This document shows, piece after piece, positions 42,775 to 57,079 of a DNA stretch of 64,000 nucleotides. The notes beneath the pieces are model-generated. The model was not told the DNA's origin. It was given only the letters and a program-made list of their open reading frames with translations, and ran no database searches. Each line of letters starts with the position of its first letter. Positions within the stretch are counted from its first letter, which is position 1. The DNA comes from an uncultured Bacteroidales bacterium (GTDB lineage: Bacteria; Bacteroidota; Bacteroidia; Bacteroidales; UBA10428), in contig CAZFQS010000001.1 in assembly GCA_964521285.1 (NCBI GenBank), positions 62,438-126,437 on the forward strand, in the 5' to 3' direction. Both the position numbers and the translations under genes were made by a program.

Positions 42775-43266
42775 TTAAGTCATTTCCCTGAGTACATCCA
42801 CTGATATATTTTTTAATTTTTCAGTTATCACTTTTAACTGGTCTGGCCTCAGCCTCTCGCGTTTATGGCTGTCAAGAATATTATCAATATTATATTTTAA
42901 CCTGGGGTACCAGTCTCCGGGATGAGGAAGATCTCCCGGTTTTCTGGGTATAATATGAATATGCATATGTGCAATTGACTGCCCGGCTTCATCCCTTTCC
43001 TGTAATGTCCAGTTGAATGCTTCAGTACCAAATGCCTTTGACAATATTTTAATCACTGATCTGCTGAATTTTATAAATTCAAATAATTCTTCATCTGTTA
43101 ACTCAAAAAAACTTGTGATGTGCTTTTTTGGTATGACTAACGTATGGCCAGGTAATATTGGAGCTATATTATAAACAGCAATGAAACTTTCATTTTCAAA
43201 AAAAGATAAATCCTTAATTCCGGATGTACAAAAGGGACAATCAATATTATTTTCTCTTTCCGGCAT
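42775..43266 (-). CDS. HIT-family nucleotide hydrolase
   Basis: CPFC, PGHTLVIPKKH, AGQSIAHMHIHIIPR (HxHxH). Confidence 0.93.
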   Translation of the reverse strand: MPERENNIDCPFCTSGIKDLSFFENESFIAVYNIAPILPGHTLVIPKKHITSFFELTDEELFEFIKFSRSVIKILSKAFGTEAFNWTLQERDEAGQSIAHMHIHIIPRKPGDLPHPGDWYPRLKYNIDNILDSHKRERLRPDQLKVITEKLKNISVDVLREMT

Positions 43267-43306: not shown

Positions 43307-43354
43307 TAATACAGCAATAAAACAATAGAGCAATAGAGTAATAGAGCAATAGAA
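43307..43354. repeat. Tandem octamer array 2 (6 units), abutting the gltD stop codon
   Basis: TAATACAG CAATAAAA CAATAGAG CAATAGAG TAATAGAG CAATAGAA. Confidence 0.88.
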
Positions 43355-44782
43355 TTATTTCATTAAATAGCGGTTAATCTCTTTTGCTGCCTCACGTCCC
43401 TGATAAATTGCCCTGACTACCAATGAAGCTCCGAGGGAAGCGTCGCCGGCAGCAAAAACTCCCGGGACATTTGTTGTATAGCTGTTGTTTATATTAATAT
43501 TACCTTTCCCGTCAAACACTATTCCAAGATGCTTTAAAAGCCTGTTATGCTCTGTATGTAAAAATCCCATCGCAAGGAAAACCATATCTACATCTAATGT
43601 AAAATCTGACCCGGGCGCTTCAACCATCTTCATTTTTTTTGTTGCTTCATTCATTTTCCAGTCGACTTTTGCACAATGCACCCTTTCAAGCTTGATGCCA
43701 CTTCCTGCAAATTTCTTCGTAAGAATACTCCATTCTCTTTTACATCCTTCTTCCTGTGATGTCGAGGTTCGCAAGATCGCTGGCCACCCGGGCCATTCCG
43801 GATTCCAGTCTTCTTTCCATATTCTTGGTTTCGGTAAAATCTCAAACTGGTATACTTCTTTTGCCCCCTGTCTGTTTGCCATTCCTACACAATCGGAACC
43901 TGTATCTCCTCCGCCAATAACAAGAACAATCTTATCCCTGGCATTGATAATTTCATGCTCCTTCAATTCACCGGCAATATATTTATTTGATTTCTTCAGG
44001 TAATCCATCGCAAAATAAATTCCTTCAAATCCCCTGCCCTGTATATCCAGATTTCTGGGCTCACCTGCACCGGCAGCCAGAAGAATTGCATCAAATGTTT
44101 TTCTTAAGTAGTGGGCAGACAGGTCTTCCCCGATAACAACATCGGTCTCAAATTCTATCCCTTCCTGCTCCATTTGTTCTATTCTTCTGTCAATTACCCA
44201 CTTTTCCAGCTTAAAATCCGGTATCCCGTATCTGAGAAGTCCTCCTGCTTTATAGTCTTTTTCAAATACGACCACTTTATGTCCGCTGCGTCTTAATTGC
44301 TGGGCAGCAGAGAGTCCGGCCGGCCCTGATCCTATAACAGCAACCTTTTTACCTGTCTCAGTAAAAGGATGTTTAGGTTCAACCCAGCCTTTTTTAAATG
44401 CATTCTCAATTATTGCAAGCTCAATTTGTTTGATTGTAACCGGACTGGTATTTATTGAAAGCGTGCATGCACTTTCGCAGGGGGCAGGGCACACTCTTCC
44501 CGTTATTTCCGGAAGATTATTTGTTTTTTCAAGCTGCTCGTAAGCCTCGCGCCAGTTATTCCTGTAAACCAAATCATTCCAGTCCGGTATCAGGTTGAAT
44601 ACAGGACAGCCGACCGAATGGCAAAAAGGAATACCACAATCCATACACCTCGCGCCCTGATTACGCAGTTCCTGTTCCGACCGAAGAATAATAAACTCAT
44701 TATAATTCTTAACCCGTTCTTCTTTCTTTTTATAAGAATAGTCTTTTCTCGTATAGTCAATAAATCCTGTTATTTTACCCAT
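43355..44782 (-). CDS. gltD: Glutamate synthase small subunit
   Basis: MGKITGF start (ATG 44782, after GAGGAGG), ARCMDCGIPFC, TGRVCPAPCE, GSGPAGL, GGGDTGSDC, FAAGD. Confidence 0.96.
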   Translation of the reverse strand: MGKITGFIDYTRKDYSYKKKEERVKNYNEFIILRSEQELRNQGARCMDCGIPFCHSVGCPVFNLIPDWNDLVYRNNWREAYEQLEKTNNLPEITGRVCPAPCESACTLSINTSPVTIKQIELAIIENAFKKGWVEPKHPFTETGKKVAVIGSGPAGLSAAQQLRRSGHKVVVFEKDYKAGGLLRYGIPDFKLEKWVIDRRIEQMEQEGIEFETDVVIGEDLSAHYLRKTFDAILLAAGAGEPRNLDIQGRGFEGIYFAMDYLKKSNKYIAGELKEHEIINARDKIVLVIGGGDTGSDCVGMANRQGAKEVYQFEILPKPRIWKEDWNPEWPGWPAILRTSTSQEEGCKREWSILTKKFAGSGIKLERVHCAKVDWKMNEATKKMKMVEAPGSDFTLDVDMVFLAMGFLHTEHNRLLKHLGIVFDGKGNININNSYTTNVPGVFAAGDASLGASLVVRAIYQGREAAKEINRYLMK

Positions 44783-44783
44783 T

Positions 44784-47700
44784 TTAATAAACCTCCTCTG
44801 TGAGTGAAACAACTTCCGTATCTTTTGATTCTGCTTTTTTAATTCTCTCAAGTGCTTTTTTATAGTCTATTGGCATGACTTTAACAAATTGTGGCTGTAT
44901 TTCAGTCCAGTCTCTTAATAAACCTTGAGCATATTCGCTGCCAGTATACTTGATATGATTACTAATCAAAGTATATAGTCTTTTATGGTCCGCCTTTCCC
45001 ACAACCGGCTCAACATCAATCATTTCAAGATTACATTTTGTATCAAAAAGCTGGTCCTGGTCGAGTACATACGCTATCCCTCCGCTCATGCCCGCACCGA
45101 AATTTATTCCTGTTTTCCCCAGTATAACTACAACGCCCCCTGTCATATATTCACATCCATGATCACCAATTCCCTCAACAACAGCCACAGCTCCGGAGTT
45201 TCTGACTGCAAATCTCTCTCCTGCCATTCCGTTAATATAAACTTCACCACGGGTAGCTCCAAAAAGGCTGACATTACCTATTATTATATTATTTTGAGGC
45301 CTGAACTGGGAGTTTTTAGGGGGATATACAACAATTTTGCCTCCTGACAGCCCCTTGCCAAGATAATCATTACATTCTCCTTCAAGTTCAAAAGTAATAC
45401 CAGCTGCAAGAAATGCCCCAAAACTTTGTCCTGCGGCTCCGGTAAACTTACAGTTTATGGTATTTTCAGGCATTCCTTTTGAACCATATCTTTTTGAGAC
45501 CTCGGCACTCAGGGTTGCTCCTACAGCACGGTTTGAATTAGCTATAGAGGCGAACATATTTATACATTGCATATTTTCCAGTGCATTTCCTGATTTTTCT
45601 ATAAGTTCAATGTCAATTGTATTTGAGAGATCATATTTGTTTGAAGAGATGAAATGGAGTTTGTTTTTCTTATTCGTTAATGGTACTGTTAGTATTTTTG
45701 AGAAATCCAGCTCTTTTGTTTTCCAGTTACCTGATAGGTTATCAGCTTCCATTATATCAGCCTGACCAATCATTTCATTGAAAGTGCGAAAACCGAGTTC
45801 AGCCATTATTTCCCGTACGTCGCGTGCAACAAATCTCATAAAATTCATAAGATATTCCGGCTTACCCGTAAATCTCTTCCTTAATTCAGGATTCTGAGTT
45901 GCAACTCCTACCGGACATGTGTTAAGGTGGCACTTTCTCATCATTATGCATCCCATTGTTATCAGGGCAGTCGTACCAAATCCGAACTCATCAGCCCCGA
46001 GAAGGGCTCCTATAACCACATCTCTTCCCGTATGTAATTTTCCGTCAACCTGAACACGTACACGATTTCTTAATTTATTAATTACCAGTGTTTGCTGGGT
46101 TTCTGCCAGTCCCATTTCCCAGGGTATACCTGCATGCTTTATGGACGATACGGGTGATGCCCCTGTTCCTCCATCATGTCCGCTAATCAATACCATATCG
46201 GCTCCTCCTTTTGCCACACCTGCAGCTATTGTCCCTACGCCCACCTCTGCTACAAGTTTAACGGATACCTTAACATCAGGATTTGCACTTTTTAAATCAA
46301 AAATAAGTTCTGATAAGTCCTCTATAGAATAAATATCATGATGTGGAGGCGGAGATATCAACATCACACCCGGTATAGAATGCCTCACTCTGGCAACATT
46401 AATGTCAACCTTATGTCCGGGTAGCTGCCCTCCTTCACCGGGCTTGGCCCCCTGGGCCATTTTAATCTGTAATTCCCTGGAATTAACAAGATAGTTGCTT
46501 GTTACCCCGAATCTTGCGGAAGCAATCTGCTTGATCATGCTTTTGGAAATATCACCGTTGGGCAGAGTATTATATCTCCCTTCATCTTCTCCCCCTTCAC
46601 CGGAATTACTTGCTGCACCGAGCCTGTTCATTGCAATGGCTATTGTTTCATGAGCTTCTTTACTTATTGATCCGAATGACATCGCAGAACTTACAAACCG
46701 TTTAATAATTGATTTCTCAGATTCAACTTCCTCAATTGGAACAGCCTCTCTTTTCTTAAATTTGAATAATCCTCGCAGTGTGCAAAGATTTTTTATTTTA
46801 TTATTAATCAGTTCAGCATACTCTTTATAAAGCGAATAATCATTTTCTCTTACTGCTTTTTGTAATAGTATTACAACCTCTGGTGATATAATGTGTTTTT
46901 CAGAAAAGCTCCTGTAATGAATATTTCCTCCTGACTCCAGTCCGTTTGACCGGTTATTTCTGTTGTACGCATTTCTGTGGCGATTTAGGCATTCTTCAAA
47001 AATATGAGTTAATCCAATGCCCCCTATTCTTGAGGGTGTACCTGGAAAATATTTGTTAATCATAGCCGAATTCAGTCCGATTGCCTCAAACAGCTGGGCC
47101 CCACGATAACTTCTTATTGTTGAAACTCCCATTTTCGACATAATCTTAAGCAGTCCTTTCTTAATAGCAGTAATGTAATTATCTATGGCAGTTTCCAGTT
47201 TGATTTCTTCAGAAATTTTCCCTTTGGCTTTGAGATCAGCAACAGTTTCAAAAGCTAAATATGGATTTACAGCACTTGCTCCAAATCCTATCAGAAGAGC
47301 AAAGTGCATTACTTCCCTTGCCTCTCCTGTTTCAACCACGAGACCGGCTAACTGCCTTTTCCCTTTACTTACAAGGTAATGATGTATAGCTGACGTAGCA
47401 AGAAGAGCAGGTACAGGTATGTTATTTTCATCCACTCCCCTGTCACTTAAAATTATCAGTGAATAGCCTTCATCAACCTTCCTTACTACTTCATCACATA
47501 TTTTTTTAATGGCTTTTTCAATATTCTTCCCGTTTTCTTTTACATTAAATATAATCGGGACAGTTGCTGTACGGAAATCCTCAATTGTAACATTACGCAG
47601 TTTATCAACATCTTCATTTGTCAGTATGGGATGCTGCAGTTTTAACTGATGACAGTGAAGCGGAGTTTCTTCAAGTAAATTCCTCTCCTTTCCTATATAA

Positions 47701-49316
47701 CTCATTAATGACATTACCAGGTTTTCACGATATGGATCAATAGGCGGATTTGTTACCTGGGCAAAAAGTTGTTTGAAATAGTTATAAAGAAGTTGCGGAT
47801 GTTCCGATAATACAGCAAGAGCGGTATCATTTCCCATGGAGCCCACCGGTTCTTGCGAATTTTCAGCCATGGGAGTAATTATCATGTTTATATCTTCGAG
47901 CGTATATCTGAATACTTTTTGCAGTAAATTCAGAAAACCGGGTTCCGTAATCACCGGGCCCGGCGGCTGAAAGAGCCCTCTTAACTCTATACGGTTTTGC
48001 TCCAGCCACCTTCTGTAAGGTTTCCTGCGGGAAATGGTCGATTTAACTTCATTATCGTATATGATTCTTTTTTTCTGTGTATCAACAAGTATCATTTTGC
48101 CCGGAGAAAGATGTCCTTTCTGCAGTACATCCTCGGGTTGAATTTCCAGTACACCGAACTCAGAGGCCATTATCAGTCTTCCGCTTTTTGTTATAGTATA
48201 CCTGGCTGGTCTGAGTCCGTTTCTGTCAAGCGCTGCCCCTACTTTAACGCCATCGGTAAAAATTAAAGCAGCCGGGCCATCCCATGGCTCCATTAAAGCT
48301 GAATGATACTCATAAAACGCACGTTTATCTTCACTTATATGATATTTGCTGCCAAAAGCCTCAGGAACCATCATCATCATTGAATGTTCAAGTGAAAAGC
48401 CACTTTGAAATAAAAGCTCATAAACATTGTCAAAAATTCCCGAGTCACTTAAATCAGTATTAATTACTGGTAAGAGTCTTCTGGTATCCTCACCGAAAAG
48501 ATCTGAGGATATTGTCTTTTCCCGGGCTTTCATTTTATTAATGTTCCCGCGCAAAGTATTAATCTCCCCGTTGTGGGCTATATATCTGAAGGGCTGCGCC
48601 AGTGGCCATGACGGGAAGGTATTTGTACTATAACGCTGATGAACAATAATAATGGCACTTTGAAAATCCTTATCTTTCAAATCAAGATAAAATTCTTCAA
48701 ACTGGGGTGCCACAAATAATCCTTTATATATAATAGTATTAGATGAAAATGAAGGTATATAGAACTCATCTATGGATATTCCTGATTCTGATACTTCATT
48801 CTCTATAATCCGGCGGACAACATATAATTTTCTTTCAAGTTCAATGCCTGATAAAGAGGGAAATTCCACAAATACCTGGCAGATGTATGGCATTGAATCC
48901 ATGGCTGTTCTGCCTAAACAACCCGGACATGTAGGAACATCTCTCCACCCTAATATTTTTCCTCCTTCTTTATAAATTATATCCTCAATTAAAGCAATCA
49001 CCTTTTTCCTGACACTATTATCATGCGGAAGAAACAGCATACCTGCTCCGTATTCACCGGCCGCAGGGAGGTTAAACTTTTGTTTAGCGGCTTCCTTTAG
49101 CAGAAAAGAATGGGGTAACTGTATCAGTATACCTGCCCCATCCCCGGTCTTAAGATCACCGCCTGTTGCCCCTCGATGTACCAGATTCTTTAATATTGTT
49201 ATTCCATCAGTTATTAGCTGATGGGAAGGTTGTCCGTTTATAGTAGCAATAAATCCTACCCCACAACCGTCATGTTCGTAAAAGGGATCATATAAACCTG
49301 CTTTCTCCATACTCAA
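44784..49316 (-). CDS. gltB: Glutamate synthase large subunit
   Basis: EHDGCGVGF (Ntn Cys), HQRYSTNTFPSW, HNGEINT, EPWDGPA, SNSGEGG, QGAKPGEGGQLPG, CIMMRKCHLNTC [3Fe-4S], GXGXG domain. Confidence 0.98.
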   Translation of the reverse strand: MSMEKAGLYDPFYEHDGCGVGFIATINGQPSHQLITDGITILKNLVHRGATGGDLKTGDGAGILIQLPHSFLLKEAAKQKFNLPAAGEYGAGMLFLPHDNSVRKKVIALIEDIIYKEGGKILGWRDVPTCPGCLGRTAMDSMPYICQVFVEFPSLSGIELERKLYVVRRIIENEVSESGISIDEFYIPSFSSNTIIYKGLFVAPQFEEFYLDLKDKDFQSAIIIVHQRYSTNTFPSWPLAQPFRYIAHNGEINTLRGNINKMKAREKTISSDLFGEDTRRLLPVINTDLSDSGIFDNVYELLFQSGFSLEHSMMMMVPEAFGSKYHISEDKRAFYEYHSALMEPWDGPAALIFTDGVKVGAALDRNGLRPARYTITKSGRLIMASEFGVLEIQPEDVLQKGHLSPGKMILVDTQKKRIIYDNEVKSTISRRKPYRRWLEQNRIELRGLFQPPGPVITEPGFLNLLQKVFRYTLEDINMIITPMAENSQEPVGSMGNDTALAVLSEHPQLLYNYFKQLFAQVTNPPIDPYRENLVMSLMSYIGKERNLLEETPLHCHQLKLQHPILTNEDVDKLRNVTIEDFRTATVPIIFNVKENGKNIEKAIKKICDEVVRKVDEGYSLIILSDRGVDENNIPVPALLATSAIHHYLVSKGKRQLAGLVVETGEAREVMHFALLIGFGASAVNPYLAFETVADLKAKGKISEEIKLETAIDNYITAIKKGLLKIMSKMGVSTIRSYRGAQLFEAIGLNSAMINKYFPGTPSRIGGIGLTHIFEECLNRHRNAYNRNNRSNGLESGGNIHYRSFSEKHIISPEVVILLQKAVRENDYSLYKEYAELINNKIKNLCTLRGLFKFKKREAVPIEEVESEKSIIKRFVSSAMSFGSISKEAHETIAIAMNRLGAASNSGEGGEDEGRYNTLPNGDISKSMIKQIASARFGVTSNYLVNSRELQIKMAQGAKPGEGGQLPGHKVDINVARVRHSIPGVMLISPPPHHDIYSIEDLSELIFDLKSANPDVKVSVKLVAEVGVGTIAAGVAKGGADMVLISGHDGGTGASPVSSIKHAGIPWEMGLAETQQTLVINKLRNRVRVQVDGKLHTGRDVVIGALLGADEFGFGTTALITMGCIMMRKCHLNTCPVGVATQNPELRKRFTGKPEYLMNFMRFVARDVREIMAELGFRTFNEMIGQADIMEADNLSGNWKTKELDFSKILTVPLTNKKNKLHFISSNKYDLSNTIDIELIEKSGNALENMQCINMFASIANSNRAVGATLSAEVSKRYGSKGMPENTINCKFTGAAGQSFGAFLAAGITFELEGECNDYLGKGLSGGKIVVYPPKNSQFRPQNNIIIGNVSLFGATRGEVYINGMAGERFAVRNSGAVAVVEGIGDHGCEYMTGGVVVILGKTGINFGAGMSGGIAYVLDQDQLFDTKCNLEMIDVEPVVGKADHKRLYTLISNHIKYTGSEYAQGLLRDWTEIQPQFVKVMPIDYKKALERIKKAESKDTEVVSLTEEVY

Positions 49317-49360
49317 GCTATCTGAATTAAAAAATTATTACTTATTTCGCAGGGTTGGGA

Positions 49361-51991
49361 TTAAGTTTTATTATTAAGATATAATACTCCTTCCTGCTCC
49401 ATAGAATTTAAAATTAAACGTAAACTAAATTCATTTTTCATATCTTCAGTATCTATAACCTTAACAGTATCAGCCCATAATTTTGCATTTGGCAACAATT
49501 CCAGTAATCGGTTATATGAGCTGTCAAAGAAATTATTATTCAAAACATAGCCTTCATTATCAGGATAAATAGCAAAATAAACCATATCCATCTCTACCAG
49601 ATCATTAAAGAAATGCGTTCCTAACGACACATCAGGAATTAATCCCTCATGCATATAGGCTATTTCACCCAAAACTGAAACAGTGTTTATTTCAGAAAAT
49701 GAAACCGGGACACCCAGTGATGGTGTGGTAGTACCCCACCTGCCCGGGCCAATTAAGGTTATATTTTTTTTATTTTCCTTTGTTTTGTCATTTAAATGTG
49801 TTAGTTCTCCTATCAGCCTGGCAACTGAGTATCTGTGACTCATACTGAGCTTTCCGTACACTGAAGGAATAACATAAATTATTCTGTCTATTTTTGTGGA
49901 TATGCTGTTTCCAACAATCGGACCTTTTGTTTTAATTATAATATTCCTGCTGTCTATATCTTCAGGTATTTTAAGGCTTCGTAAATCACCTGTAACCTGA
50001 AATGGCCTGCACTGGACGAGATTAATTTTATAGCTGTAATCATCCTGAAAGTTTACTGTAAATTCAATATCCACATGGTAGTTATAAGCTTTTCTCAGGG
50101 TTTCCAGCATATCCCTTATACTATTTACAAACTTTGTATCAGATAAAAGCCTGTTAAAAGTAAGTACATGAGAAAATATGTTCTGCATATTCCTTTCTCT
50201 TGCTATTTGTTCCAGCTCTTCATCACGGGATGTGAATAATTCCAGAGGCAGATCTGACATAACCTTTGCCAGATCCATGAAATAGTTGGATACCAATTGA
50301 TTAGAAGACAAATCAAGAATATCTACACGCTTCTGGGTATACTTTTTTACTTCATCGAAGTTTGCTTCGGGTCTCTTCAAAGGCGCATTAAGGGCCACAA
50401 TGCGAATATAATCATCATCATATCTGTTAACAGCCCTGGTCCCCAGTCCGAAAACCATGCGTATCATTCCGGCTCTGGGATCAATATCTTTATCCCATAC
50501 ATAAGGATTAAATGAAAAACCCACTCCTGCAATATGAGGAAAATAAAAATCATCATATTTAGCACCCGAAACCCTTTGAACCAGAATGGCCATTTGTTCG
50601 TCCTGATCTAAAAGATTAAGGTGAGAACGGTAAGCCAGAGCCTCTCTTTTCATAGTACTTGCATAAACAATGCGCACTGCAGACATAAACCGGTCAAGTC
50701 TTTCTTCCGGAGTACCCTGATTTGCGCAGAAAATGCTTTCATACTTTCCTGAAAACGAATTCCCGTAAGCATCTTCGAGAAGACTGCTCGAACGCACAAT
50801 AATGGGTGATTGCCCGAAATAATTAAGCATCTCGACAAACTGTTCTTTTATATCATCGGGGAAGGTGCCTGTTAGTATTACTTTACTTACTTCTTCGGCA
50901 TCATCAAATATTGAACCGCTGTTCTTCAACTTTCTCCTCATCCACCAGCAGCCATTCCTGATGAGATAAGTATAAAACACATCTGAACCAATAAAGAATG
51001 AGTCATGCTCTTCAAGAACCTCCTGCCATCTTTTATCCGCTTTCCTCAATATAGCCCTTGCTACAAGCATCCCAACCGATTTACCACCTATAAGTCCGGT
51101 TCCTATCATTCTTTTACCTATATCAATAAGATCCGAAAGCTCCAAATATTCTTTTGCCAGCTTAAGAATTCTTGGATCCCTGGTAACAGCCATTTTAAGA
51201 AGACGAGTAACCAGTTCATCTGTCTTTTTGTCATTCAGGCTACCTTTTTTTGTACTATATATTTCCTGGGCTTCAAAAAAGCTTCGTCTCCAGATATCAA
51301 GTCTGTGTACAGTATAATCAAGCCATGGCTGAGGTATAGATTTCAGTATCTCTGATATTACAGCACTTTTTGTCACAGGTTTAAATTCTTCTCCTTCCCG
51401 GCTATGCAGCATATACATGGTTGGCGAATAACGTTTATATACTTTCAATGGATGGATATAGAGTTTCTCTTTATTCCTGTATACATCGAAAACAATCTGG
51501 GCCGTGTTATGAATTGCATTTATTGTCATTGGCATATGAACATTCCTGAGAATACCGAAATATGCAACTGTTTTATAATCATAAAGATAGGGACATGTTA
51601 GCATAAAAAAGTTAGCCATCATACGATCACTATACCAATCTACCACAAGATCAGACAAACAGTCAAAAATATAGTATGTACCATAACCATATTCTTCTAT
51701 TATATCAAATATTGTTGAAATTAGTGCTTCGAATCCTTCATCAGGATTTAATGTATACATTTTAGCAACATTATCTTCAGGTAACAAAGCCTGGTGTTCT
51801 GCAAATCTGAAATAAATAATCGGTATTTTGTTTTTAACTGCTTCATTATAAAACGGATTAATGAAAGGTATGTACTCTTCTATAGAATCAACCTGCCATA
51901 TAATATTATCGCCCGGAACAACGCCCTGAATGACTTTATCCAAACCGTTCATCCCGGTACTCATATAGGTATATACTTTGTCAATACTCAT
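49361..51991 (-). CDS. Uncharacterised PEP/pyruvate-binding (PPDK_N ATP-grasp) domain protein with a degenerate KaiC/RecA-like N-terminal domain
   Basis: N-terminal STGMNGLDKVIQG without Walker A. ATP-grasp motifs IGGKS, VRSSSLLED, FSGKYES, MAILVQ, GLGTRAV, DIEF, VQCRP. No GGxTSHAA phospho-His domain or pyruvate-binding barrel. C-terminal GPGRWG and SLGTHFF. Confidence 0.75.
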   Translation of the reverse strand: MSIDKVYTYMSTGMNGLDKVIQGVVPGDNIIWQVDSIEEYIPFINPFYNEAVKNKIPIIYFRFAEHQALLPEDNVAKMYTLNPDEGFEALISTIFDIIEEYGYGTYYIFDCLSDLVVDWYSDRMMANFFMLTCPYLYDYKTVAYFGILRNVHMPMTINAIHNTAQIVFDVYRNKEKLYIHPLKVYKRYSPTMYMLHSREGEEFKPVTKSAVISEILKSIPQPWLDYTVHRLDIWRRSFFEAQEIYSTKKGSLNDKKTDELVTRLLKMAVTRDPRILKLAKEYLELSDLIDIGKRMIGTGLIGGKSVGMLVARAILRKADKRWQEVLEEHDSFFIGSDVFYTYLIRNGCWWMRRKLKNSGSIFDDAEEVSKVILTGTFPDDIKEQFVEMLNYFGQSPIIVRSSSLLEDAYGNSFSGKYESIFCANQGTPEERLDRFMSAVRIVYASTMKREALAYRSHLNLLDQDEQMAILVQRVSGAKYDDFYFPHIAGVGFSFNPYVWDKDIDPRAGMIRMVFGLGTRAVNRYDDDYIRIVALNAPLKRPEANFDEVKKYTQKRVDILDLSSNQLVSNYFMDLAKVMSDLPLELFTSRDEELEQIARERNMQNIFSHVLTFNRLLSDTKFVNSIRDMLETLRKAYNYHVDIEFTVNFQDDYSYKINLVQCRPFQVTGDLRSLKIPEDIDSRNIIIKTKGPIVGNSISTKIDRIIYVIPSVYGKLSMSHRYSVARLIGELTHLNDKTKENKKNITLIGPGRWGTTTPSLGVPVSFSEINTVSVLGEIAYMHEGLIPDVSLGTHFFNDLVEMDMVYFAIYPDNEGYVLNNNFFDSSYNRLLELLPNAKLWADTVKVIDTEDMKNEFSLRLILNSMEQEGVLYLNNKT

Positions 51992-52110
51992 CCTTAAATA
52001 CCATTAAATAAGCCAGTAAACCCAGACAATTACTATTTAATTAAAAAAATTCGCAAGCAATAAAAATTATTTAAGCATGCCTTAAAAATCTCAGAATTGC
52101 ATTTATGAAG

Positions 52111-52126
52111 GCAATTATTATACCAA
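52111..52126 (-). promoter_or_regulatory. Sigma54 (-24/-12) promoter for the PPDK_N-gltB-gltD operon
   Basis: The minus strand reads TTGGTATAATAATTGC: exact GG-N10-GC spacing with TGGYAY and TTGC. It lies about 120 nt upstream of the ATG at 51991, divergent from a sigma54 activator gene. Confidence 0.75.
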
Positions 52127-52257
52127 ATATTTTAGTTTTTTTAATTGAGAAGTTTCCAATGTGTAACTTATTGGCTTTATGGCTATAATTCAGAGAGTTA
52201 GACATACAACAAATATTTAGCAGATATTACGGATTTATTTTATAATTACTTAAAAAA

Positions 52258-52312
52258 GCACTATATTTGTGCAATAATCATATTTATATCTTTTATTGCA
52301 CATATTTTAGTC
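52258..52312. promoter_or_regulatory. NtrC-type upstream activator sites: perfect GCAC-TATATTT-GTGC (52258-52272) and degenerate GCAC-ATATTTT-AGTC (52298-52312)
   Basis: GCAC-N7-GTGC palindrome about 135 bp upstream of the -24 element, with a second half-match 40 bp further. Confidence 0.65.
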
Positions 52313-52334
52313 AAAATTACTAAAATAATTAATT

Positions 52335-54407
52335 ATGGAACCTAAAAATAGCAACAGGAGGAAAAATACATATAAATTACAAATCCTTGAAGACATCCTT
52401 GATATAATTAATTCAGCCATTTCTCCCAGCGAGCTTTTAAATTATCTTATTGATAAATGTATTGAAATAACAGGAGCACTTACAGGAAGTATAAGGATAA
52501 TAAATCCTGAAACAAACATTCTGGAGATCAAAGTATTCAGGGGACTTAATCCAAGTAAAATTTTGAAAATTAAGTTAAAACTGGGAGAAGGTGTTACCGG
52601 ACGTGTCGCAGAAACAGGATTACCTCTTCTGGTCAATAATGTAGATGATATTGAGTATTATATCAGGGTGAGAAAAGACTTAAAATCAGAACTTGCAGTC
52701 CCGCTTAAAGCTGAAAATACAACATTTGGTGTAATAAGTGTCGATAGTAATAAACTGAATGCCTTTACTAAAGAGCATCAAAATTTGCTGGAAACAATAT
52801 CAACTTTTGCTGTACAGATTTTACAGAAAGCAAACTTAATAGAAAATCTGAAAGACAGGATCGAAAGGCAAAATCTGCTTTTAAAGGTTGCTGATATACT
52901 GGCTCAGGAATTCGAACTCGAAAAGGTTTTTGAAAAAATAATGGATTATATCTCAAAAGTAATGGACATAAAAAGAGGGTCTATTATTCTTCTTGACAAA
53001 CATGAAAAACTTAAAGCCTTTAAAGGATACAACTTAAGTGACGATGCAATAGAAAGGGGAGTCTATCAGGTGGGTGAAGGAGTGGTTGGCAAGGTTTTTA
53101 AATATGGCAATGGTATAAAAATAAAAGATATAACAAAAAGTATTGATTTTCTGAATAGAATGAAAATCAGGCGGGGAACAGGAGAAAAGAATTCATTTTT
53201 TGCAGTACCGATCAAATACGAAGATAAAACTGTAGGCGTATTAAATATTGAAAAGGAATATATCTCAGATGAAGATTTTAAAAGTACCTTCGAGACAATA
53301 ACTTTAATTGCAACTCTGGTTTCCAACAAGGTTTATAATTATGTCATCTCAAAAAGAGAAAAGGAATTACTGCTAAAGAAAAATATAGAATTGCAGAAAA
53401 AACTAAAGCAAAAAGAAATTAATCCTGATTTTGTAGGAAAAAATAAAAGAATATTAAAATTACTTGATACAGTTAATGTGATTGCAGGTACTGACGCCAC
53501 AGTACTAATAACCGGACCAACAGGAGCAGGTAAAGAAATAATAGCAAAATTAATTCACAATAAAAGCAGAAGATTTGAAAATCAATTTGTTAGTATTAAT
53601 TGTGCTGCTATACCGGAAAATCTTCTTGAATCAGAATTATTCGGATATAAAAAGGGAGCATTTACAGACGCAGTTAATGACAAAAAGGGGAAATTTCTTC
53701 TGGCAAATAACGGAACAATCTTTTTTGATGAAATCGGAGACCTTGATTTGAACTTGCAGGCAAAAATCCTTAGAGTCATTCAGGAGAAAACAATAGAACC
53801 ATTAGGCAGTGAAAAAAGCATAAAAGTTGATGTCAGAATAATTGCAGCTACCAATAAGAACTTAAAAACACTTACAATGGAAAACAAGTTCAGGGAGGAC
53901 CTTTTTTACAGATTAAATGTTATAAATATCGATATTCCTCCTCTTGCTGAAAGGAAAGATGATATTCCTCTTCTTCTTGAACACTTTATTAATATTTATA
54001 ATAAGAAATATAACAGGGATATTGAAGGAATTACATCCGGGTGTTACCACGCACTTATGAATTATCGCTGGCCAGGCAATATAAGAGAGCTTGAAAACAT
54101 CATTGAAAGAGCTGTTATACTTTCAAACGGCAGGTCCATCGATATTGGTGATCTGCCGGAAGATCTTACAAATTATGTTGTAAGTGATGACAAGGATTTA
54201 CTGAAACAACTAATCGAAGAAGAAATTAAAATTCAGGATAAAGGGGAAATATATAAAACAGTAATAAATAAAATTGAGAAATTCTTAATAGAATTTGCGC
54301 TGATAAAATCTAATAATAACCGGACTGAAGCAGCTGATTATTTAGGAATTCACAGAAATACGCTACATTTGAAATTAAAAAACTCACATAATATAACCAT
54401 TGATTAG
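52335..54407 (+). CDS. Sigma54-dependent enhancer-binding protein, GAF-GAF-AAA+-HTH (NifA-like architecture, NtrC/Fis-like HTH)
   Basis: Two GAF repeats (LGEGVTGRVAETG..SELAVPL; VGEGVVGKV..FFAVPI), Walker A GPTGAGKE, ESELFG, GAFTDA, FFDEIGD, FREDLFYRLNV, WPGNIREL, HTH LGIHRNTL. No receiver domain. Confidence 0.93.
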   Translation: MEPKNSNRRKNTYKLQILEDILDIINSAISPSELLNYLIDKCIEITGALTGSIRIINPETNILEIKVFRGLNPSKILKIKLKLGEGVTGRVAETGLPLLVNNVDDIEYYIRVRKDLKSELAVPLKAENTTFGVISVDSNKLNAFTKEHQNLLETISTFAVQILQKANLIENLKDRIERQNLLLKVADILAQEFELEKVFEKIMDYISKVMDIKRGSIILLDKHEKLKAFKGYNLSDDAIERGVYQVGEGVVGKVFKYGNGIKIKDITKSIDFLNRMKIRRGTGEKNSFFAVPIKYEDKTVGVLNIEKEYISDEDFKSTFETITLIATLVSNKVYNYVISKREKELLLKKNIELQKKLKQKEINPDFVGKNKRILKLLDTVNVIAGTDATVLITGPTGAGKEIIAKLIHNKSRRFENQFVSINCAAIPENLLESELFGYKKGAFTDAVNDKKGKFLLANNGTIFFDEIGDLDLNLQAKILRVIQEKTIEPLGSEKSIKVDVRIIAATNKNLKTLTMENKFREDLFYRLNVINIDIPPLAERKDDIPLLLEHFINIYNKKYNRDIEGITSGCYHALMNYRWPGNIRELENIIERAVILSNGRSIDIGDLPEDLTNYVVSDDKDLLKQLIEEEIKIQDKGEIYKTVINKIEKFLIEFALIKSNNNRTEAADYLGIHRNTLHLKLKNSHNITID

Positions 54408-54439: not shown

Positions 54440-57079
54440 ATGAAAAAAATTCTGCTTTTAACAATTAGTTGCTGCTTTATAATCTATAATATCTTTTCTC
54501 AACAGGATAATGAGATTATAACTCCCGAAGAATTTTTTGGATTCAGACCCGGTGAAGAAGGTATGTTATTTAAATACGAATCTTTAATAAATTATCTGGA
54601 TAAACTTGCCAAAGTATCCCCAAGAGTAAAAATGACAGAAATAGGAGAATCTCCTTTAGGAAAAAAGATGTATATAGTCTTTTTGTCATCAGAAGAGAAT
54701 ATAAAAAATCTTGAAAATCTTAAAATATTAAACAGGGAACTGGCTCTTAATTATAATATCGAGCCAGAAGAAAAAGAAAAATATGTTCGGGAAGGAAAAG
54801 TGTTTGTACTGGTTACCCTTTCAATGCATTCCAATGAAGTCGGGCCTACTCAATCAGCCCCTTTAATCGCTCATCAGCTGGCTGTAACAGATGATCCTGA
54901 ACTTCTTGGTTATCTTGACCAGGTAGTATTGATGGTAGTACCCTGTCATAATCCTGATGGTATGGATATGGTTGTGGACCATTATAAAAAATATAAGGGC
55001 ACAATATACGAAGGAACCAGATTGCCGGGTTTATATCATAAATATGTAGGTCATGATAATAACAGAGATTTTGTTAGCCTAACGCAGGAAGATACAAAAG
55101 TAATTGCCAATATTTACAACAAATCATGGTTCCCTCAGGTATTATTAGAAAAACACCAGATGCACATCGATGGAACAAGATATTTTGTGCCCCCGGTTAA
55201 TGATCCTATTTCAGAAAATATTAATGAACAATTATGGAACTGGACATGGATTTTTGGTTCTGCCATGGCGAAAGATATGACCGAAAAAGGCCTTGAAGGG
55301 GTATCTCAACACTACCTGTTTGATGATTACTGGCCGGGATCAACAGAAACAGCCTTATGGAAGAACGTAATAGGGCTTCTTACTGAATGTGCGAGTGCAA
55401 AATATGCAACTTCGGTATATATCGAGCCAAATGAATTAAAAGTATTCAGTAAGGGTCTTGCAGAGCATAAAAAAAGTATAAATATGCCTTTACCATGGGA
55501 AGGCGGATGGTGGAAACTTAGCGATATAGTTGAATATGAAATGGTTTCTTTTTATTCACTGATAAAAACTTCTGCAATTCATAAAAAGGAAATTTTAAAG
55601 TTAAGAAATGATATCTGTCAGATTGAAGTTAAAAAGGGAAAAACCGAACCACCTTATTATTATTTGTTTCCTTCTGACCAGCATGATCCGGGAGAGATAG
55701 TTAAGCTTATTAATCTGCTGGACGAGCACGGTATTGATGTATATAAAGTATCAGATTCATTTACCCTTGATAACAAACAGATAAATGAGAATGATTACAT
55801 AGTGCCTTTAGCCCAGCCGTTCAGGTCATTTTTAATTGAAGTATTAGAAAAACAAACCTTTCCGGTCAGACATTATACTCCTGGTGGTGAAATTATGAAA
55901 CCATATGACATAACAAGCTGGTCATTGCCATTACACATGGGTGTCAAGGTTATTAAAATAAATACTTATTCCGAAAACTTAGATAAATCTCTTGTTAAGC
56001 AGGAACTTCCCTTGAAAAGTAATATTTCATTCCCTGAAAAATATAGTGCTGTAATATTCCCGTCACAATTTAATGATAGTTACCGGGCTGTCTTCGAAGC
56101 AATAAACCAGCAGATTAAGGTAGAAAGAGTACATGACAGTTTTGAAATTAACGGTAATAAAGTATGGGCCGGCAGTTTTGTAATATATATTGATAAAAAC
56201 AATCAGCAAAAGCTCGAAAAAATTATTAATGGAATAAATATATCTCCTTTATTTTTAACAGAGTCAATAAACATTAAATCCGAAAAAATAAATATACCGA
56301 GGATCGGACTGGTTGAATCTTACTTTCACGATATGGACGCAGGCTGGACAAGATATTTATTCGACAGTTATTCTATCAATTTTAAAGTATTAAGGCCAGC
56401 TGATATTGCTAACAAGGACTTAACAAAAGAATTTGATGTAATAGTCTTTCCTGATATGGATAATAATGTGTTAACAGAAGGTAAATATAAGTCCGATGAT
56501 GACAGCTATATTATTCCTGTGTATCCCCCTGAATATGCAAAAGGTATGGGTAAGGAAGGGATGGAAAAGGTACTTGATTTTATTAATAAGGGCGGTTCCG
56601 TAATCTCATGGGGAAGGTCAGCGAAATTATTTATGGGGCCTCTGGCAATTACAAAACAAAATGATGAAAAAGAAGAATTTCAGCTGCCTGTTAATGATAT
56701 TTCTGAAGAGCTTAAAAAACAAAAATTTTATTGTCCGGGTTCATTACTAAAGACAGAGCTAATAGAAAACCATCCATTAACCTGGGGAATGCCCAAATCT
56801 GCAGGTGTTTTTTCACGAGGGACACCAGTACTAACTACTTCAATTCCCTGGTTTGATATGGACAGGAGGGTAATTGCCACCTTACCTGAAAAAAACATAC
56901 TTTTAAGCGGGTATATTGAAAATGAAGATTTAATCAGCAATAAATCAATGATGGTATGGATAAAGAAAGGTAAAGGACAGCTGGTATTGTACGGATTTTA
57001 TCCCCAGTTCAGAGCTTCAACAGCAGGTACATATAAACTGTTGTTTAATGCGCTGCTTTTGCCGGAGATTAAACAATAA
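54440..57079 (+). CDS. Exported M14 zinc carboxypeptidase-family protein with a C-terminal class-I GATase/DJ-1-like domain
   Basis: Signal peptide, HSNE (HxxE), HNPDG, GHDNNRD, EKHQM. C-terminal MDAGWTRYLFD..DVIVFP..GKGQLVLYGF.PQFRA. Confidence 0.8.
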   Translation: MKKILLLTISCCFIIYNIFSQQDNEIITPEEFFGFRPGEEGMLFKYESLINYLDKLAKVSPRVKMTEIGESPLGKKMYIVFLSSEENIKNLENLKILNRELALNYNIEPEEKEKYVREGKVFVLVTLSMHSNEVGPTQSAPLIAHQLAVTDDPELLGYLDQVVLMVVPCHNPDGMDMVVDHYKKYKGTIYEGTRLPGLYHKYVGHDNNRDFVSLTQEDTKVIANIYNKSWFPQVLLEKHQMHIDGTRYFVPPVNDPISENINEQLWNWTWIFGSAMAKDMTEKGLEGVSQHYLFDDYWPGSTETALWKNVIGLLTECASAKYATSVYIEPNELKVFSKGLAEHKKSINMPLPWEGGWWKLSDIVEYEMVSFYSLIKTSAIHKKEILKLRNDICQIEVKKGKTEPPYYYLFPSDQHDPGEIVKLINLLDEHGIDVYKVSDSFTLDNKQINENDYIVPLAQPFRSFLIEVLEKQTFPVRHYTPGGEIMKPYDITSWSLPLHMGVKVIKINTYSENLDKSLVKQELPLKSNISFPEKYSAVIFPSQFNDSYRAVFEAINQQIKVERVHDSFEINGNKVWAGSFVIYIDKNNQQKLEKIINGINISPLFLTESINIKSEKINIPRIGLVESYFHDMDAGWTRYLFDSYSINFKVLRPADIANKDLTKEFDVIVFPDMDNNVLTEGKYKSDDDSYIIPVYPPEYAKGMGKEGMEKVLDFINKGGSVISWGRSAKLFMGPLAITKQNDEKEEFQLPVNDISEELKKQKFYCPGSLLKTELIENHPLTWGMPKSAGVFSRGTPVLTTSIPWFDMDRRVIATLPEKNILLSGYIENEDLISNKSMMVWIKKGKGQLVLYGFYPQFRASTAGTYKLLFNALLLPEIKQ

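What the first reader, a model, noticed from the sequence alone, without database searches (positions are those of the whole stretch)
43355..54407. Candidate new sigma54 nitrogen-assimilation module: one-component GAF-GAF activator driving an [unknown ATP-grasp protein]-gltB-gltD operon
Seen in sequence: three minus-strand genes (49361-51991, gltB, gltD) are separated by only 44 nt and 1 nt. They diverge from a GAF-GAF-AAA+-HTH enhancer-binding protein that has no receiver domain. The 343-nt spacer holds an exactly spaced -24/-12 element (TTGGTATAATAATTGC, minus strand, 52111-52126). It also holds a perfect GCAC-N7-GTGC palindrome (52258-52272) about 135 bp further upstream, plus a degenerate second copy 40 bp beyond. 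Established: GCAC-N7-GTGC is the NtrC box. The activator HTH (LGIHRNTL) resembles NtrC's (LGWGRNTL). The GAF domain of Azotobacter NifA binds 2-oxoglutarate. Inference: glutamate synthase is switched on directly by a ligand-sensing activator, without NtrB/NtrC phosphorelay, and is co-expressed with an uncharacterised ATP-dependent protein. I do not recall this arrangement being described in Bacteroidota.
Basis: partly seen in the sequence, partly recalled or inferred. Interest (0 to 1): 0.85.

Follow-up and report, generated by a model that had tools for sequence, protein, structure and literature searches.

The report
Sigma-54 switch for glutamate synthase operon
An uncultured Bacteroidales bacterium appears to switch on its glutamate synthase genes with a sensor-activator and a sigma-54 promoter, and the first gene of that operon belongs to an uncharacterised ATP-binding protein family that sits next to glutamate-making genes in many bacterial and archaeal phyla.

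Summary

Pattern counts alone are not above chance. The evidence is comparative. In five orthologous spacers (80-92% protein identity), the three best-conserved blocks are exactly the two GCAC-N7-GTGC-type boxes and TTTGGTAyAGTAATTGCCT.

Orthologues of the GAF-GAF activator in Spirochaetota and Auribacterota MAGs sit beside glnA, GSIII, amtB-glnB or glnE. In two of these loci the same box lies upstream of canonical TTGGCAC-N5-TTGCA promoters; a third has a variant box.

The activator family is not new. It is about 40% identical over its full length to Leptospira GAF-GAF activators. These are probably EbpA orthologues, and EbpA activates amtB and is needed for nitrogen-limited growth. The regulator is therefore a new member of a known kind, with a new target.

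The more interesting part is the first operon gene. It has a KaiC-like N-domain without a P-loop, an intact PPDK-type ATP-grasp, and a C-domain with no solved structural match. It has no phosphohistidine or PEP-binding domain, so it is not a PEP synthase. It is 50-60% identical across more than 15 phyla, including archaea. In 48 of 84 loci it lies within 6 kb of GDH, gltBD, glnA, amtB or NrpR. I found no paper describing it.

The parts
43355..44782 (-). gltD, glutamate synthase small subunit. Last gene of the core operon.
   Evidence: TIGR01317 scores 616 bits against a cutoff of 448. The ATG at 44782 lies 1 nt after the gltB stop and is preceded by AGGAGG. Orthologue gene calls give 475 aa.
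44784..49310 (-). gltB, glutamate synthase large subunit.
   Evidence: NF008730 scores 1789 bits against a cutoff of 1047. All four Pfam domains are present. The probable start is ATG 49310; the ORF also allows TTG 49316.
49361..51991 (-). First operon gene: an 876-aa protein of an uncharacterised family. It has a P-loop-less KaiC-like N-domain, a helical linker, a PPDK-type ATP-grasp, and a C-terminal alpha/beta domain with no solved structural match.
   Evidence: The only Pfam hit is PPDK_N, residues 300-679. Foldseek matches KaiC/FlaH (E 1e-9) and rifampin phosphotransferase (E 7e-11). The C-domain model has pLDDT 85.7 and no PDB fold match. Neighbourhood census.
51992..52099 (-). Predicted 5' untranslated leader, about 108 nt, from the predicted start site near 52099 to the ATG at 51991.
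   Evidence: Inferred from the position of the -12 GC. Poorly conserved among orthologues. No Rfam match.
52109..52127 (-). Sigma-54-type -24/-12 promoter, TTTGGTATAATAATTGCCT. GG is at 52123-52124 and GC at 52111-52112.
   Evidence: 16 of 19 columns are invariant in five orthologous spacers, against a 25% background. GG and AATTGCCT are invariant, and the changes fall in the inter-element positions.
52186..52204 (.). Conserved block midway between enhancer and promoter. It reads ATTCAR-N4-TTA on the plus strand, like an IHF/HU-type bending site.
   Evidence: Fourth best conserved block, 10 of 19 columns. The IHF reading is my inference from the WATCAA-N4-TTR consensus and was not tested.
52258..52272 (.). 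UAS1, the perfect dyad GCACTATATTTGTGC, centred about 166 bp upstream of the predicted start site and 63 bp upstream of the activator ATG.
   Evidence: Best conserved block of the spacer, 18 of 19 columns. It is the only perfect match in the 64 kb. The same dyad lies upstream of sigma-54 promoters next to an orthologous activator.
52298..52312 (.). UAS2, a degenerate dyad: GCACATATTTTAGTC on the plus strand, TGACTAAAATATGTGCA on the operon strand. It lies 40 bp from UAS1.
   Evidence: 13 of 19 columns are invariant. A nearly identical box, TGACTGAAATTTGTGCAA, lies upstream of glnA in L089, which carries a 59%-identical activator. The L089 amtB operon has two boxes 39 bp apart.
52335..54407 (+). 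GAF-GAF-AAA+-HTH_8 enhancer-binding protein without a receiver domain. This is the proposed activator.
   Evidence: Pfam hits. It scores below the NifA and NtrC equivalog cutoffs. It is 84-93% identical to the orthologues found in its own clade, and an EBP lies beside the operon in every such locus with enough flank. It is 52-64% identical to Spirochaetota and Auribacterota proteins and about 40% to Leptospira proteins.
42775..43266 (-). HIT-family hydrolase gene, 88 nt downstream of gltD. It may be the tail of the transcript. Its membership of the operon is uncertain.
   Evidence: Pfam HIT. The same position is kept in L001. No terminator-like site was predicted in between, but an 8-bp tandem repeat fills the gap.

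Best explanation
**What it is.** The region is a sigma-54 nitrogen-assimilation switch in an uncultured Bacteroidales bacterium.

**How it most likely works**
1. The GAF-GAF-AAA+-HTH protein (52335-54407) binds as dimers to two GCAC-N7-GTGC-type boxes (52258-52272 and 52298-52312).
2. It is looped, probably over a bend at 52186-52204, to sigma-54 RNA polymerase held at TTGGTATAATAATTGC (52111-52126).
3. It uses ATP to open that promoter.
4. One transcript then runs through the PPDK_N-family gene, gltB and gltD.
5. The boxes lie 23-77 bp upstream of the activator's own ATG and overlap a Bacteroidota-type TAnnTTTG element. Binding therefore probably also represses the activator gene.
6. The signal is probably a nitrogen-status metabolite (2-oxoglutarate and/or glutamine) read by the GAF domains, with no phosphorelay.

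**The first gene.** It is not a PEP synthase. It is an ATP-binding protein of a very conserved, uncharacterised family that works with the glutamate-forming step. My best guess is an ATP-dependent enzyme acting on a substrate or intermediate of GDH/GOGAT. My second guess is a modifier of those enzymes.

**Shown:** the gene identities, the motif positions, their conservation, the regulon pattern in relatives, and the gene neighbourhoods.

**Inferred:** binding, sigma-54 dependence, the ligand, co-transcription, autoregulation, and the biochemical role of the first gene.
For: **Gene calls.**

**Synteny.** The arrangement EBP <-> PPDK_N-gltB-gltD is kept wherever enough flank was available, in four diverged lineages plus the window.

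**Footprint.** UAS1, the -24/-12 element and UAS2 are the three most conserved blocks of an otherwise 25%-invariant spacer.

**Orthologous activators elsewhere**
- L090 (52% identity): two GCAC-N7-GTGC boxes plus TTGGCACGCGGATTGCA upstream of amtB-glnB, and one box plus TTGGCATGTTCTTTGCA upstream of GSIII.
- L089 (59%): TGACTGAAATTTGTGCAA plus TTGGCACATCTTTTGCT upstream of glnA, and two boxes 39 bp apart plus TGGCACGTTGTTTGC at the amtB operon.
- L095 (55%): divergent from amtB-glnB, with GCATAAATTATATGC in the spacer.
- L094 (60%): beside glnE.

**DNA-binding helix.** LG[IL][HN]RNTL is the prevailing form in the family, Leptospira included.

**Precedent.** Leptospira EbpA has the same architecture. 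Recombinant EbpA and RpoN bind the upstream and promoter regions of amtB, and EbpA is needed for nitrogen-limited growth (PMC12655853).

**GAF domains.** GAF2 is nearest to Nlh1/Nlh2/NifA and GAF1 to PtsP.

**A second lineage.** In L092, whose PPDK_N-family protein is 64% identical to the window's, a single-GAF activator is divergent from the same operon, with TGGCATGGTTGTTGC 45 nt before the ATG.

**Operon.** Gaps are 50 nt and 1 nt, and no terminator-like site was predicted between the genes.

**First gene.** The PEPS-like ATP-grasp motifs are intact (RSSSLLEDxxxxSFSGKYES, DEQMAxLVQ, DIEFT; my reading). In 48 of 84 loci from more than 15 phyla it has GDH (33), gltB (14), gltD (14), NrpR (6), glnA (4) or amtB (3) within 6 kb. 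Two canonical NtrC boxes precede it in Dechloromonas.
Against: - No experiment exists: no start-site mapping, binding assay or expression data.
- rpoN could not be looked for, because only 64 kb is available.
- The -24 half is TGGTAT rather than TGGCAC. The consensus score is ordinary for this AT-rich window.
- TGGTATAAT also reads as an extended -10.
- UAS1 overlaps a TAnnTTTG motif, so part of its conservation could be the activator's own promoter.
- The L1 loop reads GAFTDA instead of GAFTGA. That form occurs only in this clade.
- The HTH is no closer to NtrC than to Fis.
- The ligand is untested.
- Sigma-54 promoters are not generally enriched upstream of the PPDK_N-family gene in other phyla (5 loci against 3.8 expected). 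The regulatory link is therefore lineage-specific.
- L093 has the same operon with neither an activator nor a clear -24/-12 element.
Confidence: 0.7

Rival explanations
1. The operon is read from an ordinary sigma-A promoter, with the conserved TGGTATAAT acting as an extended -10. The palindromes serve only as the activator's own promoter or operator.
For: The consensus scan finds TTAAAA-16-TATAAT with an upstream TG at 52144-52117. UAS1 contains TATATTTG, which fits the Bacteroidota -7 motif TAnnTTTG (my knowledge). The -24/-12 score is not above background.
Against: - Orthologues read TATAGT, TACAGT and TATAGA at that hexamer, while GG and AATTGCCT stay invariant. That is the sigma-54 pattern, not the -10 pattern.
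- Bacteroidota sigma-A does not use TTGACA/TATAAT (my knowledge).
- The same boxes stand upstream of canonical TTGGCAC-N5-TTGCA promoters beside orthologous activators.
Confidence: 0.07
2. The promoter is sigma-54 dependent but is driven by a different activator encoded elsewhere, for example a true NtrC. GCAC-N7-GTGC is also the NtrC box. The adjacent GAF-GAF protein would then only autoregulate or control other genes.
For: The box equals the enterobacterial NtrC half-sites (my knowledge). Canonical NtrC-type boxes precede the PPDK_N-family gene in Dechloromonas. The rest of the genome was not available.
Against: - Activator and operon stay adjacent and divergent in every lineage of the clade where enough flank was available.
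- Orthologous activators in other phyla sit next to genes that carry the same box.
- The recognition helix is conserved through the family.
Confidence: 0.1
3. The activator senses something other than nitrogen status, such as redox state, formate, NO or a cyclic nucleotide, as other GAF activators do (FhlA, NorR). The link to glutamate synthase would then serve another purpose.
For: GAF domains bind many ligands. NCBIfam gives comparable sub-threshold scores to NifA, NorR and FhlA models. No ligand was tested.
Against: - Every orthologue examined outside Leptospira sits beside glnA, GSIII, amtB-glnB, glnE or GOGAT genes.
- Leptospira EbpA is needed for nitrogen-limited growth.
- The nearest solved GAF domains are NifA-type and PtsP-type.
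Confidence: 0.13
4. The PPDK_N-family protein is a covalent or allosteric regulator of GDH/GOGAT, in the way GlnE acts on glutamine synthetase, rather than a metabolic enzyme.
For: - Its partners alternate between GDH and GOGAT, which share only the glutamate-forming chemistry.
- The P-loop-less KaiC-like domain looks like a scaffold or binding module.
- It has no phosphohistidine or substrate-binding domain of known dikinases.
Against: - 50-60% identity between bacteria and archaea is unusually high for a regulator.
- In some genomes a short paralogue is adjacent or fused, which suggests a hetero-oligomeric enzyme.
- There is no direct evidence either way.
Confidence: 0.3

Closest known systems
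Leptospira EbpA-RpoN pathway (Hu et al. 2017, as summarised in review PMC12655853)
   Same: Same architecture: GAF-GAF, AAA+ sigma-54 interaction domain and Fis-type HTH, with no receiver domain. Leptospira homologues are about 40-41% identical over 95-97% of the length. The pathway controls nitrogen-assimilation genes and matters under nitrogen limitation.
   Different: The known EbpA targets are amtB and two lipoprotein genes, not GOGAT. In Leptospira the activator gene is not next to nitrogen genes. The window clade has GAFTDA in the L1 loop. The EbpA binding site could not be compared, because the primary papers were not held.
NifA and the Aquifex NifA-like homologues Nlh1/Nlh2
   Same: All are GAF-regulated sigma-54 activators. 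GAF2 plus AAA+ gives the best NCBIfam hit (NifA, 439 bits). GAF2 is nearest to the solved Nlh1/Nlh2/NifA GAF domains.
   Different: The score is below the NifA equivalog cutoff of 529 bits. The window protein has an extra N-terminal GAF. No nif genes are nearby. The box is NtrC-like, not the NifA TGT-N10-ACA (my knowledge).
Enterobacterial NtrB-NtrC / glnAp2 system
   Same: Same DNA logic: two GCAC-N7-GTGC dyads more than 100 bp upstream of a -24/-12 promoter of a nitrogen-assimilation operon, overlapping a divergent or upstream sigma-70-type promoter.
   Different: There is no receiver domain, so NtrB cannot phosphorylate it. The score is below the NtrC equivalog cutoff (320 against 559 bits). 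In E. coli, gltBD is not a direct sigma-54/NtrC target (my knowledge).
Geobacter sulfurreducens RpoN regulon
   Same: A sigma-54 promoter is predicted for a GOGAT operon, and GDH is RpoN dependent (PMC2725144).
   Different: The activators differ (GnfM and others, PMC2995071). The GOGAT is of a different type. The PPDK_N-family gene is not mentioned.
PEP synthase, PPDK and rifampin phosphotransferase
   Same: The central ATP-grasp (PPDK_N) is homologous and its nucleotide-binding motifs are intact.
   Different: It has no PEP-utilizers phosphohistidine domain and no PEP/pyruvate TIM barrel. It has an added P-loop-less KaiC-like N-domain and an unmatched C-domain.

Membership tests
Sigma-54 (-24/-12) promoter | GG and GC dinucleotides exactly 10 nt apart, within TGGCAC-N5-TTGCW | tested here: met
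   TGGTAT-N5-TTGCC has the correct GG-N10-GC spacing and TTGC. Two positions of the -24 hexamer and the W position differ. The match alone is not above chance.
Sigma-54 (-24/-12) promoter | Conserved in orthologous upstream regions | tested here: met
   16 of 19 columns are invariant in five spacers, against a 25% background.
Sigma-54 (-24/-12) promoter | rpoN present in the genome, and a transcription start about 12 nt downstream of the GC | not testable with these tools
   Only 64 kb is available, and no rpoN was found among the window ORFs that were scanned. No transcript data exist.
Bacterial enhancer-binding protein | AAA+ sigma-54 interaction domain with Walker A and a GAFTGA loop | tested here: met
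   PF00158 at E 2.6e-68 and the GPTGAGKE Walker A. The loop reads GAFTDA, a variant confined to this clade, so its full function is unproven.
Bacterial enhancer-binding protein | C-terminal Fis-type HTH and upstream dyad binding sites | tested here: met
   HTH_8 at E 4.8e-10. Two conserved dyads are present. Binding itself was not tested.
NtrC (NR-I) response regulator | N-terminal receiver domain phosphorylated by NtrB | tested here: not met
   There is no Response_reg hit. TIGR01818 scores 320 bits against a cutoff of 559 and aligns only from the AAA+ domain onward.
NifA | Equivalog-level match and control of nif genes | tested here: not met
   TIGR01817 scores 439 bits against a cutoff of 529. 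There are no nif genes in the window or in orthologous loci.
EbpA-type GAF-GAF activators (Leptospira) | GAF-GAF-AAA+-HTH architecture, full-length homology and a nitrogen-assimilation regulon | tested here: met
   40-41% identity over 95-97% of the length to Leptospira proteins of the same architecture. Nitrogen genes lie beside the orthologues. That the Leptospira hits are EbpA is inferred from the review's statement that saprophytic species have only EbpA.
PEP synthase / pyruvate phosphate dikinase | Phosphohistidine swivel domain (PEP-utilizers) | tested here: not met
   No Pfam hit on residues 672-876 even at E<=10. No PDB sequence hit. A confident C-domain model has no PDB fold match.
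PEP synthase / pyruvate phosphate dikinase | PEP/pyruvate-binding TIM barrel | tested here: not met
   PPDK_N is the only Pfam domain. NCBIfam PEP synthase scores 47 bits against a cutoff of 740.
KaiC/RecA-type ATPase | RecA-like fold | tested here: met
   Foldseek matches KaiC and FlaH at E 1e-9 to 1e-7 over about 220-240 alignment columns.
KaiC/RecA-type ATPase | Walker A P-loop | tested here: not met
   The sequence after GLDKVIQGVVPGDNIIWQV reads DSIEEY, with no GxxxxGK[ST] (my reading).
NADPH-GOGAT (GltBD) | Equivalog-level matches for the large and small subunits | tested here: met
   NF008730 scores 1789 bits against 1047. TIGR01317 scores 616 bits against 448.

The most novel reading that the evidence does not exclude
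The 870-aa protein (P-loop-less KaiC-like domain, ATP-grasp, unmatched C-domain) is an unrecognised ATP-dependent component of primary ammonium assimilation, shared by many anaerobic bacteria and archaea. It might couple ATP to the 2-oxoglutarate amination step so that GDH or GOGAT works at low ammonium, or it might act as a GlnE-like switch for these enzymes. It would then be part of the nitrogen-limitation regulons of at least three unrelated regulator types: GAF-type sigma-54 activators, NtrC and NrpR.
Probability: 0.3. Interest if true: 0.9.

Novelty: new variant of a known kind. Interest (0 to 1): 0.62.

Why it matters
- Nitrogen control in Bacteroidales is poorly understood, and to my knowledge the order lacks the NtrBC paradigm. 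This locus gives a concrete, testable circuit: one ligand-sensing activator, two boxes, and one sigma-54 promoter driving GOGAT.
- The circuit ties into a regulator family that also governs glnA, GSIII and amtB in Spirochaetota and relatives.
- GS, GOGAT and GDH are treated as the complete core of ammonium assimilation. A large, strongly conserved ATP-binding protein that travels with GDH or GOGAT genes in more than 15 phyla, and sits under nitrogen regulators, suggests a missing player.
- Databases currently label this family 'pyruvate, water dikinase' or 'PEP/pyruvate-binding domain protein'. For this family the dikinase label is wrong.

Tried and rejected
1. **Pattern statistics alone.** TGG-N8-TTGC (12 found, 8.8 expected), one-mismatch palindromes (5 found, 7.2 expected) and a weighted sigma-54 score do not single out the site.
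2. **General sigma-54 control of the PPDK_N family.** Five loci have an upstream hit against 3.8 expected. Rejected: the control is lineage-specific.
3. **A '620-aa unknown' neighbour in 8 loci.** It is the antisense ORF of GDH in high-GC genomes.
4. **The 1470-aa forms as fusions with that ORF.** Rejected. They are a short paralogue (ATP-grasp plus C-domain) fused to the full-length protein.
5. **The C-domain as a diverged phosphohistidine swivel domain,** suggested by SLGTHFFNDLVE resembling GGxTSHxAxxARE. There is no sequence or fold support.
6. **An RNA element in the 108-nt leader or elsewhere.** No Rfam family reaches threshold in the window.
7. **Recent horizontal transfer judged by base composition.** There is no GC anomaly.
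8. **Literature on the family.** Searches found no paper describing it.
9. **Primary EbpA papers.** They are not held, so the EbpA binding site could not be compared.

Full report
**1. What is in the sequence**

The minus strand carries three genes.
- gltD, 43355-44782.
- gltB, 44784-49310.
- An 876-aa gene, 49361-51991, whose only Pfam match is the PPDK_N ATP-grasp (residues 300-679).

Diverging from them, 343 nt away, is a 690-aa protein with two GAF domains, a sigma-54 interaction AAA+ domain, an AAA lid and a Fis-type HTH. It has no receiver domain.

gltB and gltD pass NCBI's equivalog cutoffs. The activator stays below the NifA, NorR, NtrC and FhlA cutoffs.

gltD starts 1 nt after the gltB stop. 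gltB most likely starts at ATG 49310, which gives a 50-nt gap; the 44-nt figure applies if TTG 49316 is used. No terminator-like site was predicted between the three genes.

LysS in the same window is 73-88% identical to proteins of Bacteroidales MAGs. The host is therefore an uncultured Bacteroidales. The rest of the window encodes polysaccharide-degrading functions.

**2. Is it more than chance?**

Not by pattern matching.
- TGG-N8-TTGC occurs 12 times in the window against 8.8 expected.
- A weighted consensus score puts the site among about 30 equal or better ones.
- The perfect palindrome is unique in the 64 kb, but the one-mismatch class is at chance level.

The decisive evidence is comparative. 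I fetched orthologous loci whose first-gene product is 92%, 83%, 80% and 80% identical. Wherever enough flank was available, they keep activator <-> PPDK_N-gltB-gltD.

In the alignment of the five spacers only 25% of columns are invariant. The best-conserved 19-column blocks are:

| Rank | Window coordinates | Element | Invariant columns |
|---|---|---|---|
| 1 | 52254-52272 | UAS1 | 18 of 19 |
| 2 | 52109-52127 | -24/-12 element, TTTGGTAyAGTAATTGCCT | 16 of 19 |
| 3 | 52295-52313 | UAS2 | 13 of 19 |
| 4 | 52186-52204 | Unassigned block | 10 of 19 |

Within the promoter block, GG and AATTGCCT never change. The substitutions fall between the two elements. That pattern fits sigma-54 and does not fit a -10 hexamer.

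The fourth block lies midway between enhancer and promoter. It reads ATTCAR-N4-TTA, which looks like an IHF/HU-type bending site. That reading is my inference.

**3. The activator family and its regulon**

The closest relatives outside the window's clade are not Bacteroidota. They come from Spirochaetota and Auribacterota MAGs (52-64% identity), followed by Leptospira (about 40% over 95-97% of the length).

| Locus | Identity to window activator | Neighbouring genes and motifs |
|---|---|---|
| L089 | 59% | Divergent from glnA and flanked by GOGAT-like genes and amtB-glnB. glnA is preceded by TGACTGAAATTTGTGCAA, almost the window's UAS2, and TTGGCACATCTTTTGCT. The amtB operon has two boxes 39 bp apart and TGGCACGTTGTTTGC. 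|
| L090 | 52% | amtB-glnB has two perfect GCAC-N7-GTGC boxes and TTGGCACGCGGATTGCA. GSIII has one box and TTGGCATGTTCTTTGCA. |
| L095 | 55% | Divergent from amtB-glnB, with GCATAAATTATATGC in the spacer. |
| L094 | 60% | Beside glnE. |

LG[IL][HN]RNTL is the prevailing form of the recognition helix in the family.

This is therefore a family of one-component nitrogen regulators with an NtrC-like box. The window carries a member whose adjacent target is a GOGAT operon.

The family already has a characterised member, Leptospira EbpA. It has GAF-GAF, AAA+ and HTH domains. Recombinant EbpA and RpoN bind the upstream and promoter regions of amtB, and EbpA is needed for growth under nitrogen limitation and for survival in water (review PMC12655853). 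The primary papers were not available.

Sigma-54 control of GOGAT and GDH has been reported for Geobacter (PMC2725144). A 2025 cross-phylum survey of sigma-54 regulons never mentions glutamate synthase. Where it discusses Bacteroidota it names other functions, such as chaperones, proteases and ABC permeases (PMC12316311). B. thetaiotaomicron has gltB-gltD-asnB with a different organisation (PMC10434189). For Bacteroidota the arrangement therefore does seem undescribed.

**4. The signal**

There is no receiver domain, so this protein cannot be the target of an NtrB-type kinase. That follows directly from the sequence.
- GAF2 is most similar to the solved GAF domains of Aquifex Nlh1/Nlh2 and of NifA.
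- GAF1 is most similar to the GAF domain of PtsP (EI-Ntr).

From the literature I recall, NifA and EI-Ntr GAF domains respond to 2-oxoglutarate and, for EI-Ntr, glutamine. This fits direct metabolite sensing but does not prove it.

Two cautions apply. The L1 loop reads GAFTDA, a form seen only in this clade. And the HTH is no more NtrC-like than Fis-like.

**5. Autoregulation**

The two boxes lie 23-77 bp upstream of the activator's ATG. UAS1 contains TATATTTG, which fits the Bacteroidota sigma-A -7 motif (my knowledge). Binding probably occludes the activator's own promoter, as at glnAp1 in enterobacteria. This is inference.

**6. The first operon gene**

Databases call it 'pyruvate, water dikinase' or 'PEP/pyruvate-binding domain protein'. 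It is neither.

*Structure*
- The AlphaFold model has pLDDT 72.5.
- An N-terminal RecA/KaiC/FlaH-like domain matches at Foldseek E 1e-9. Its P-loop is replaced: the sequence runs ...PGDNIIWQVDSIEEY....
- A helical linker follows.
- The ATP-grasp is most similar to rifampin phosphotransferase and PEP synthase.
- By my reading of the sequence against PEP synthase motifs recalled from memory, the nucleotide-binding motifs are intact.
- The last 200 residues have no Pfam match even at E<=10 and no PDB sequence match.
- Modelled alone with good confidence (pLDDT 85.7, pTM 0.86), they have no PDB fold match either; the best E is 0.31.
- The protein therefore lacks both the phosphohistidine swivel domain and the PEP/pyruvate barrel. 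It carries invariant His, Thr and Asp residues (MHEG, SLGTHFFND) in an unmatched domain.

*Distribution*
- A profile of the C-domain finds 1769 cluster representatives among 1.84 billion. The full-length hits are almost all about 850-900 aa with the domain at the C-terminal end, or longer fusions of about 1080-1650 aa.
- In some lineages a short paralogue (ATP-grasp plus C-domain) is adjacent or fused.
- The family is 48-64% identical to the window protein in Fibrobacterota, Spirochaetota, Planctomycetota, Verrucomicrobiota, Lentisphaerota, Omnitrophota, Acidobacteriota, Proteobacteria, Asgard archaea and Methanomassiliicoccales, among others.

*Neighbourhood*

In 84 non-redundant loci, many cut short by contig ends, 48 have a nitrogen-assimilation gene within 6 kb.

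| Neighbour within 6 kb | Loci |
|---|---|
| GDH | 33 (21 within 500 bp, mostly on the same strand) |
| gltB | 14 |
| gltD | 14 |
| NrpR | 6 |
| glnA | 4 |
| amtB | 3 |

GAF-type activators recur as well. In Dechloromonas two textbook NtrC boxes precede the gene.

The protein's partners therefore alternate between the two glutamate-forming enzymes. Its regulators are of the kinds that control nitrogen-assimilation genes.

*Proposed role*

I commit to this reading: an ATP-dependent protein acting at the glutamate-forming step. It is either an enzyme that activates a substrate or intermediate (for comparison, PigC and RedH are distant hits of the ATP-grasp; from memory, they phosphorylate a carbonyl oxygen to drive a condensation), or a modifier of GDH/GOGAT. 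Neither was testable here. I found no paper on the family.

**7. Rivals**

- The sigma-A/extended -10 reading is contradicted by the substitution pattern and by the canonical promoters beside orthologous activators.
- The 'other activator' reading is weakened by conserved adjacency.
- The 'other signal' reading is weakened by the uniformly nitrogen-related neighbourhoods.
- Sigma-54 control is not a universal property of the PPDK_N family. L093 has the operon with no activator. L092 has it with a single-GAF activator, GCAC-N6-GTGC dyads and a clear TGGCATGGTTGTTGC.

**8. Verdict**

The regulator is a new member of a known kind (EbpA/NifA-like GAF activators) with a new target, and apparently the first such case in Bacteroidales. 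The uncharacterised first gene is the part that deserves follow-up.

Noticed in passing
window 43308-43353: An 8-bp tandem repeat (AATAGAGC, 5.8 copies) fills most of the 88-nt gap between gltD and the HIT gene. No canonical terminator is predicted there.
   Followed up: partly
window 54440-57079: An 879-aa M14 carboxypeptidase-like gene follows the activator after 32 nt on the same strand. The pairing is kept in L084 and L088 but not in L001, so it may be co-transcribed with the activator.
   Followed up: partly
window 44792-44797: A strong Shine-Dalgarno-like AGGAGG lies 9 nt upstream of the gltD ATG, inside the end of gltB. To my knowledge this is unusual for Bacteroidales, which mostly lack such sites.
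   Followed up: no
L026 9775-9827 (Dechloromonas sp. SSD3 chromosome): Two canonical NtrC-type boxes, TGCACTCCATTGGTGCA and GCGCACTACAGTGGTGCGC, lie about 190-225 bp upstream of the PPDK_N-family gene, with GDH divergent. I did not see a clear -24/-12 element.
   Followed up: partly
P0018, P0064 and L032 14989-20091: Forms of about 1460-1700 aa fuse a short paralogue (ATP-grasp plus C-domain, no KaiC-like domain) to the full-length protein. The L032 form also gives a weak, sub-threshold match to a nucleotidyltransferase domain near its end. In Acidobacteriota loci the short paralogue is a separate adjacent gene.
   Followed up: partly
window 52335-54407 (residues about 441-446): The sigma-54 contact loop reads GAFTDA. 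Among 120 homologues this form occurs only in the window's own clade (4 sequences); the rest are mostly GAFTGA or GSFTGA.
   Followed up: partly
window 49361-54407 compared with 37565-39289: The activator and the PPDK_N-family protein have their nearest outside relatives in Spirochaetota, Fibrobacterota and Chitinivibrionia (60-64% identity). LysS is clearly Bacteroidales. This hints that the module was acquired horizontally, although GC content shows no anomaly.
   Followed up: partly
L094 10273-14118: Next to an orthologous activator and glnE lies a 1281-aa TIR-NACHT-HEAT protein, which looks like a defence or STAND-type NTPase gene.
   Followed up: no
L092 5800-6160: The single-GAF activator locus carries several GCAC-N6-GTGC dyads, one base shorter in spacing than in the GAF-GAF family, upstream of its sigma-54 promoter.
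   Followed up: no
window 1-30000: The left half of the window encodes GH115, GH116, a CBM4/9 protein, L-arabinose isomerase and an FGGY kinase. This fits a polysaccharide-degrading lifestyle. The right end encodes cytochrome bd oxidase, as in L001.
   Followed up: partly
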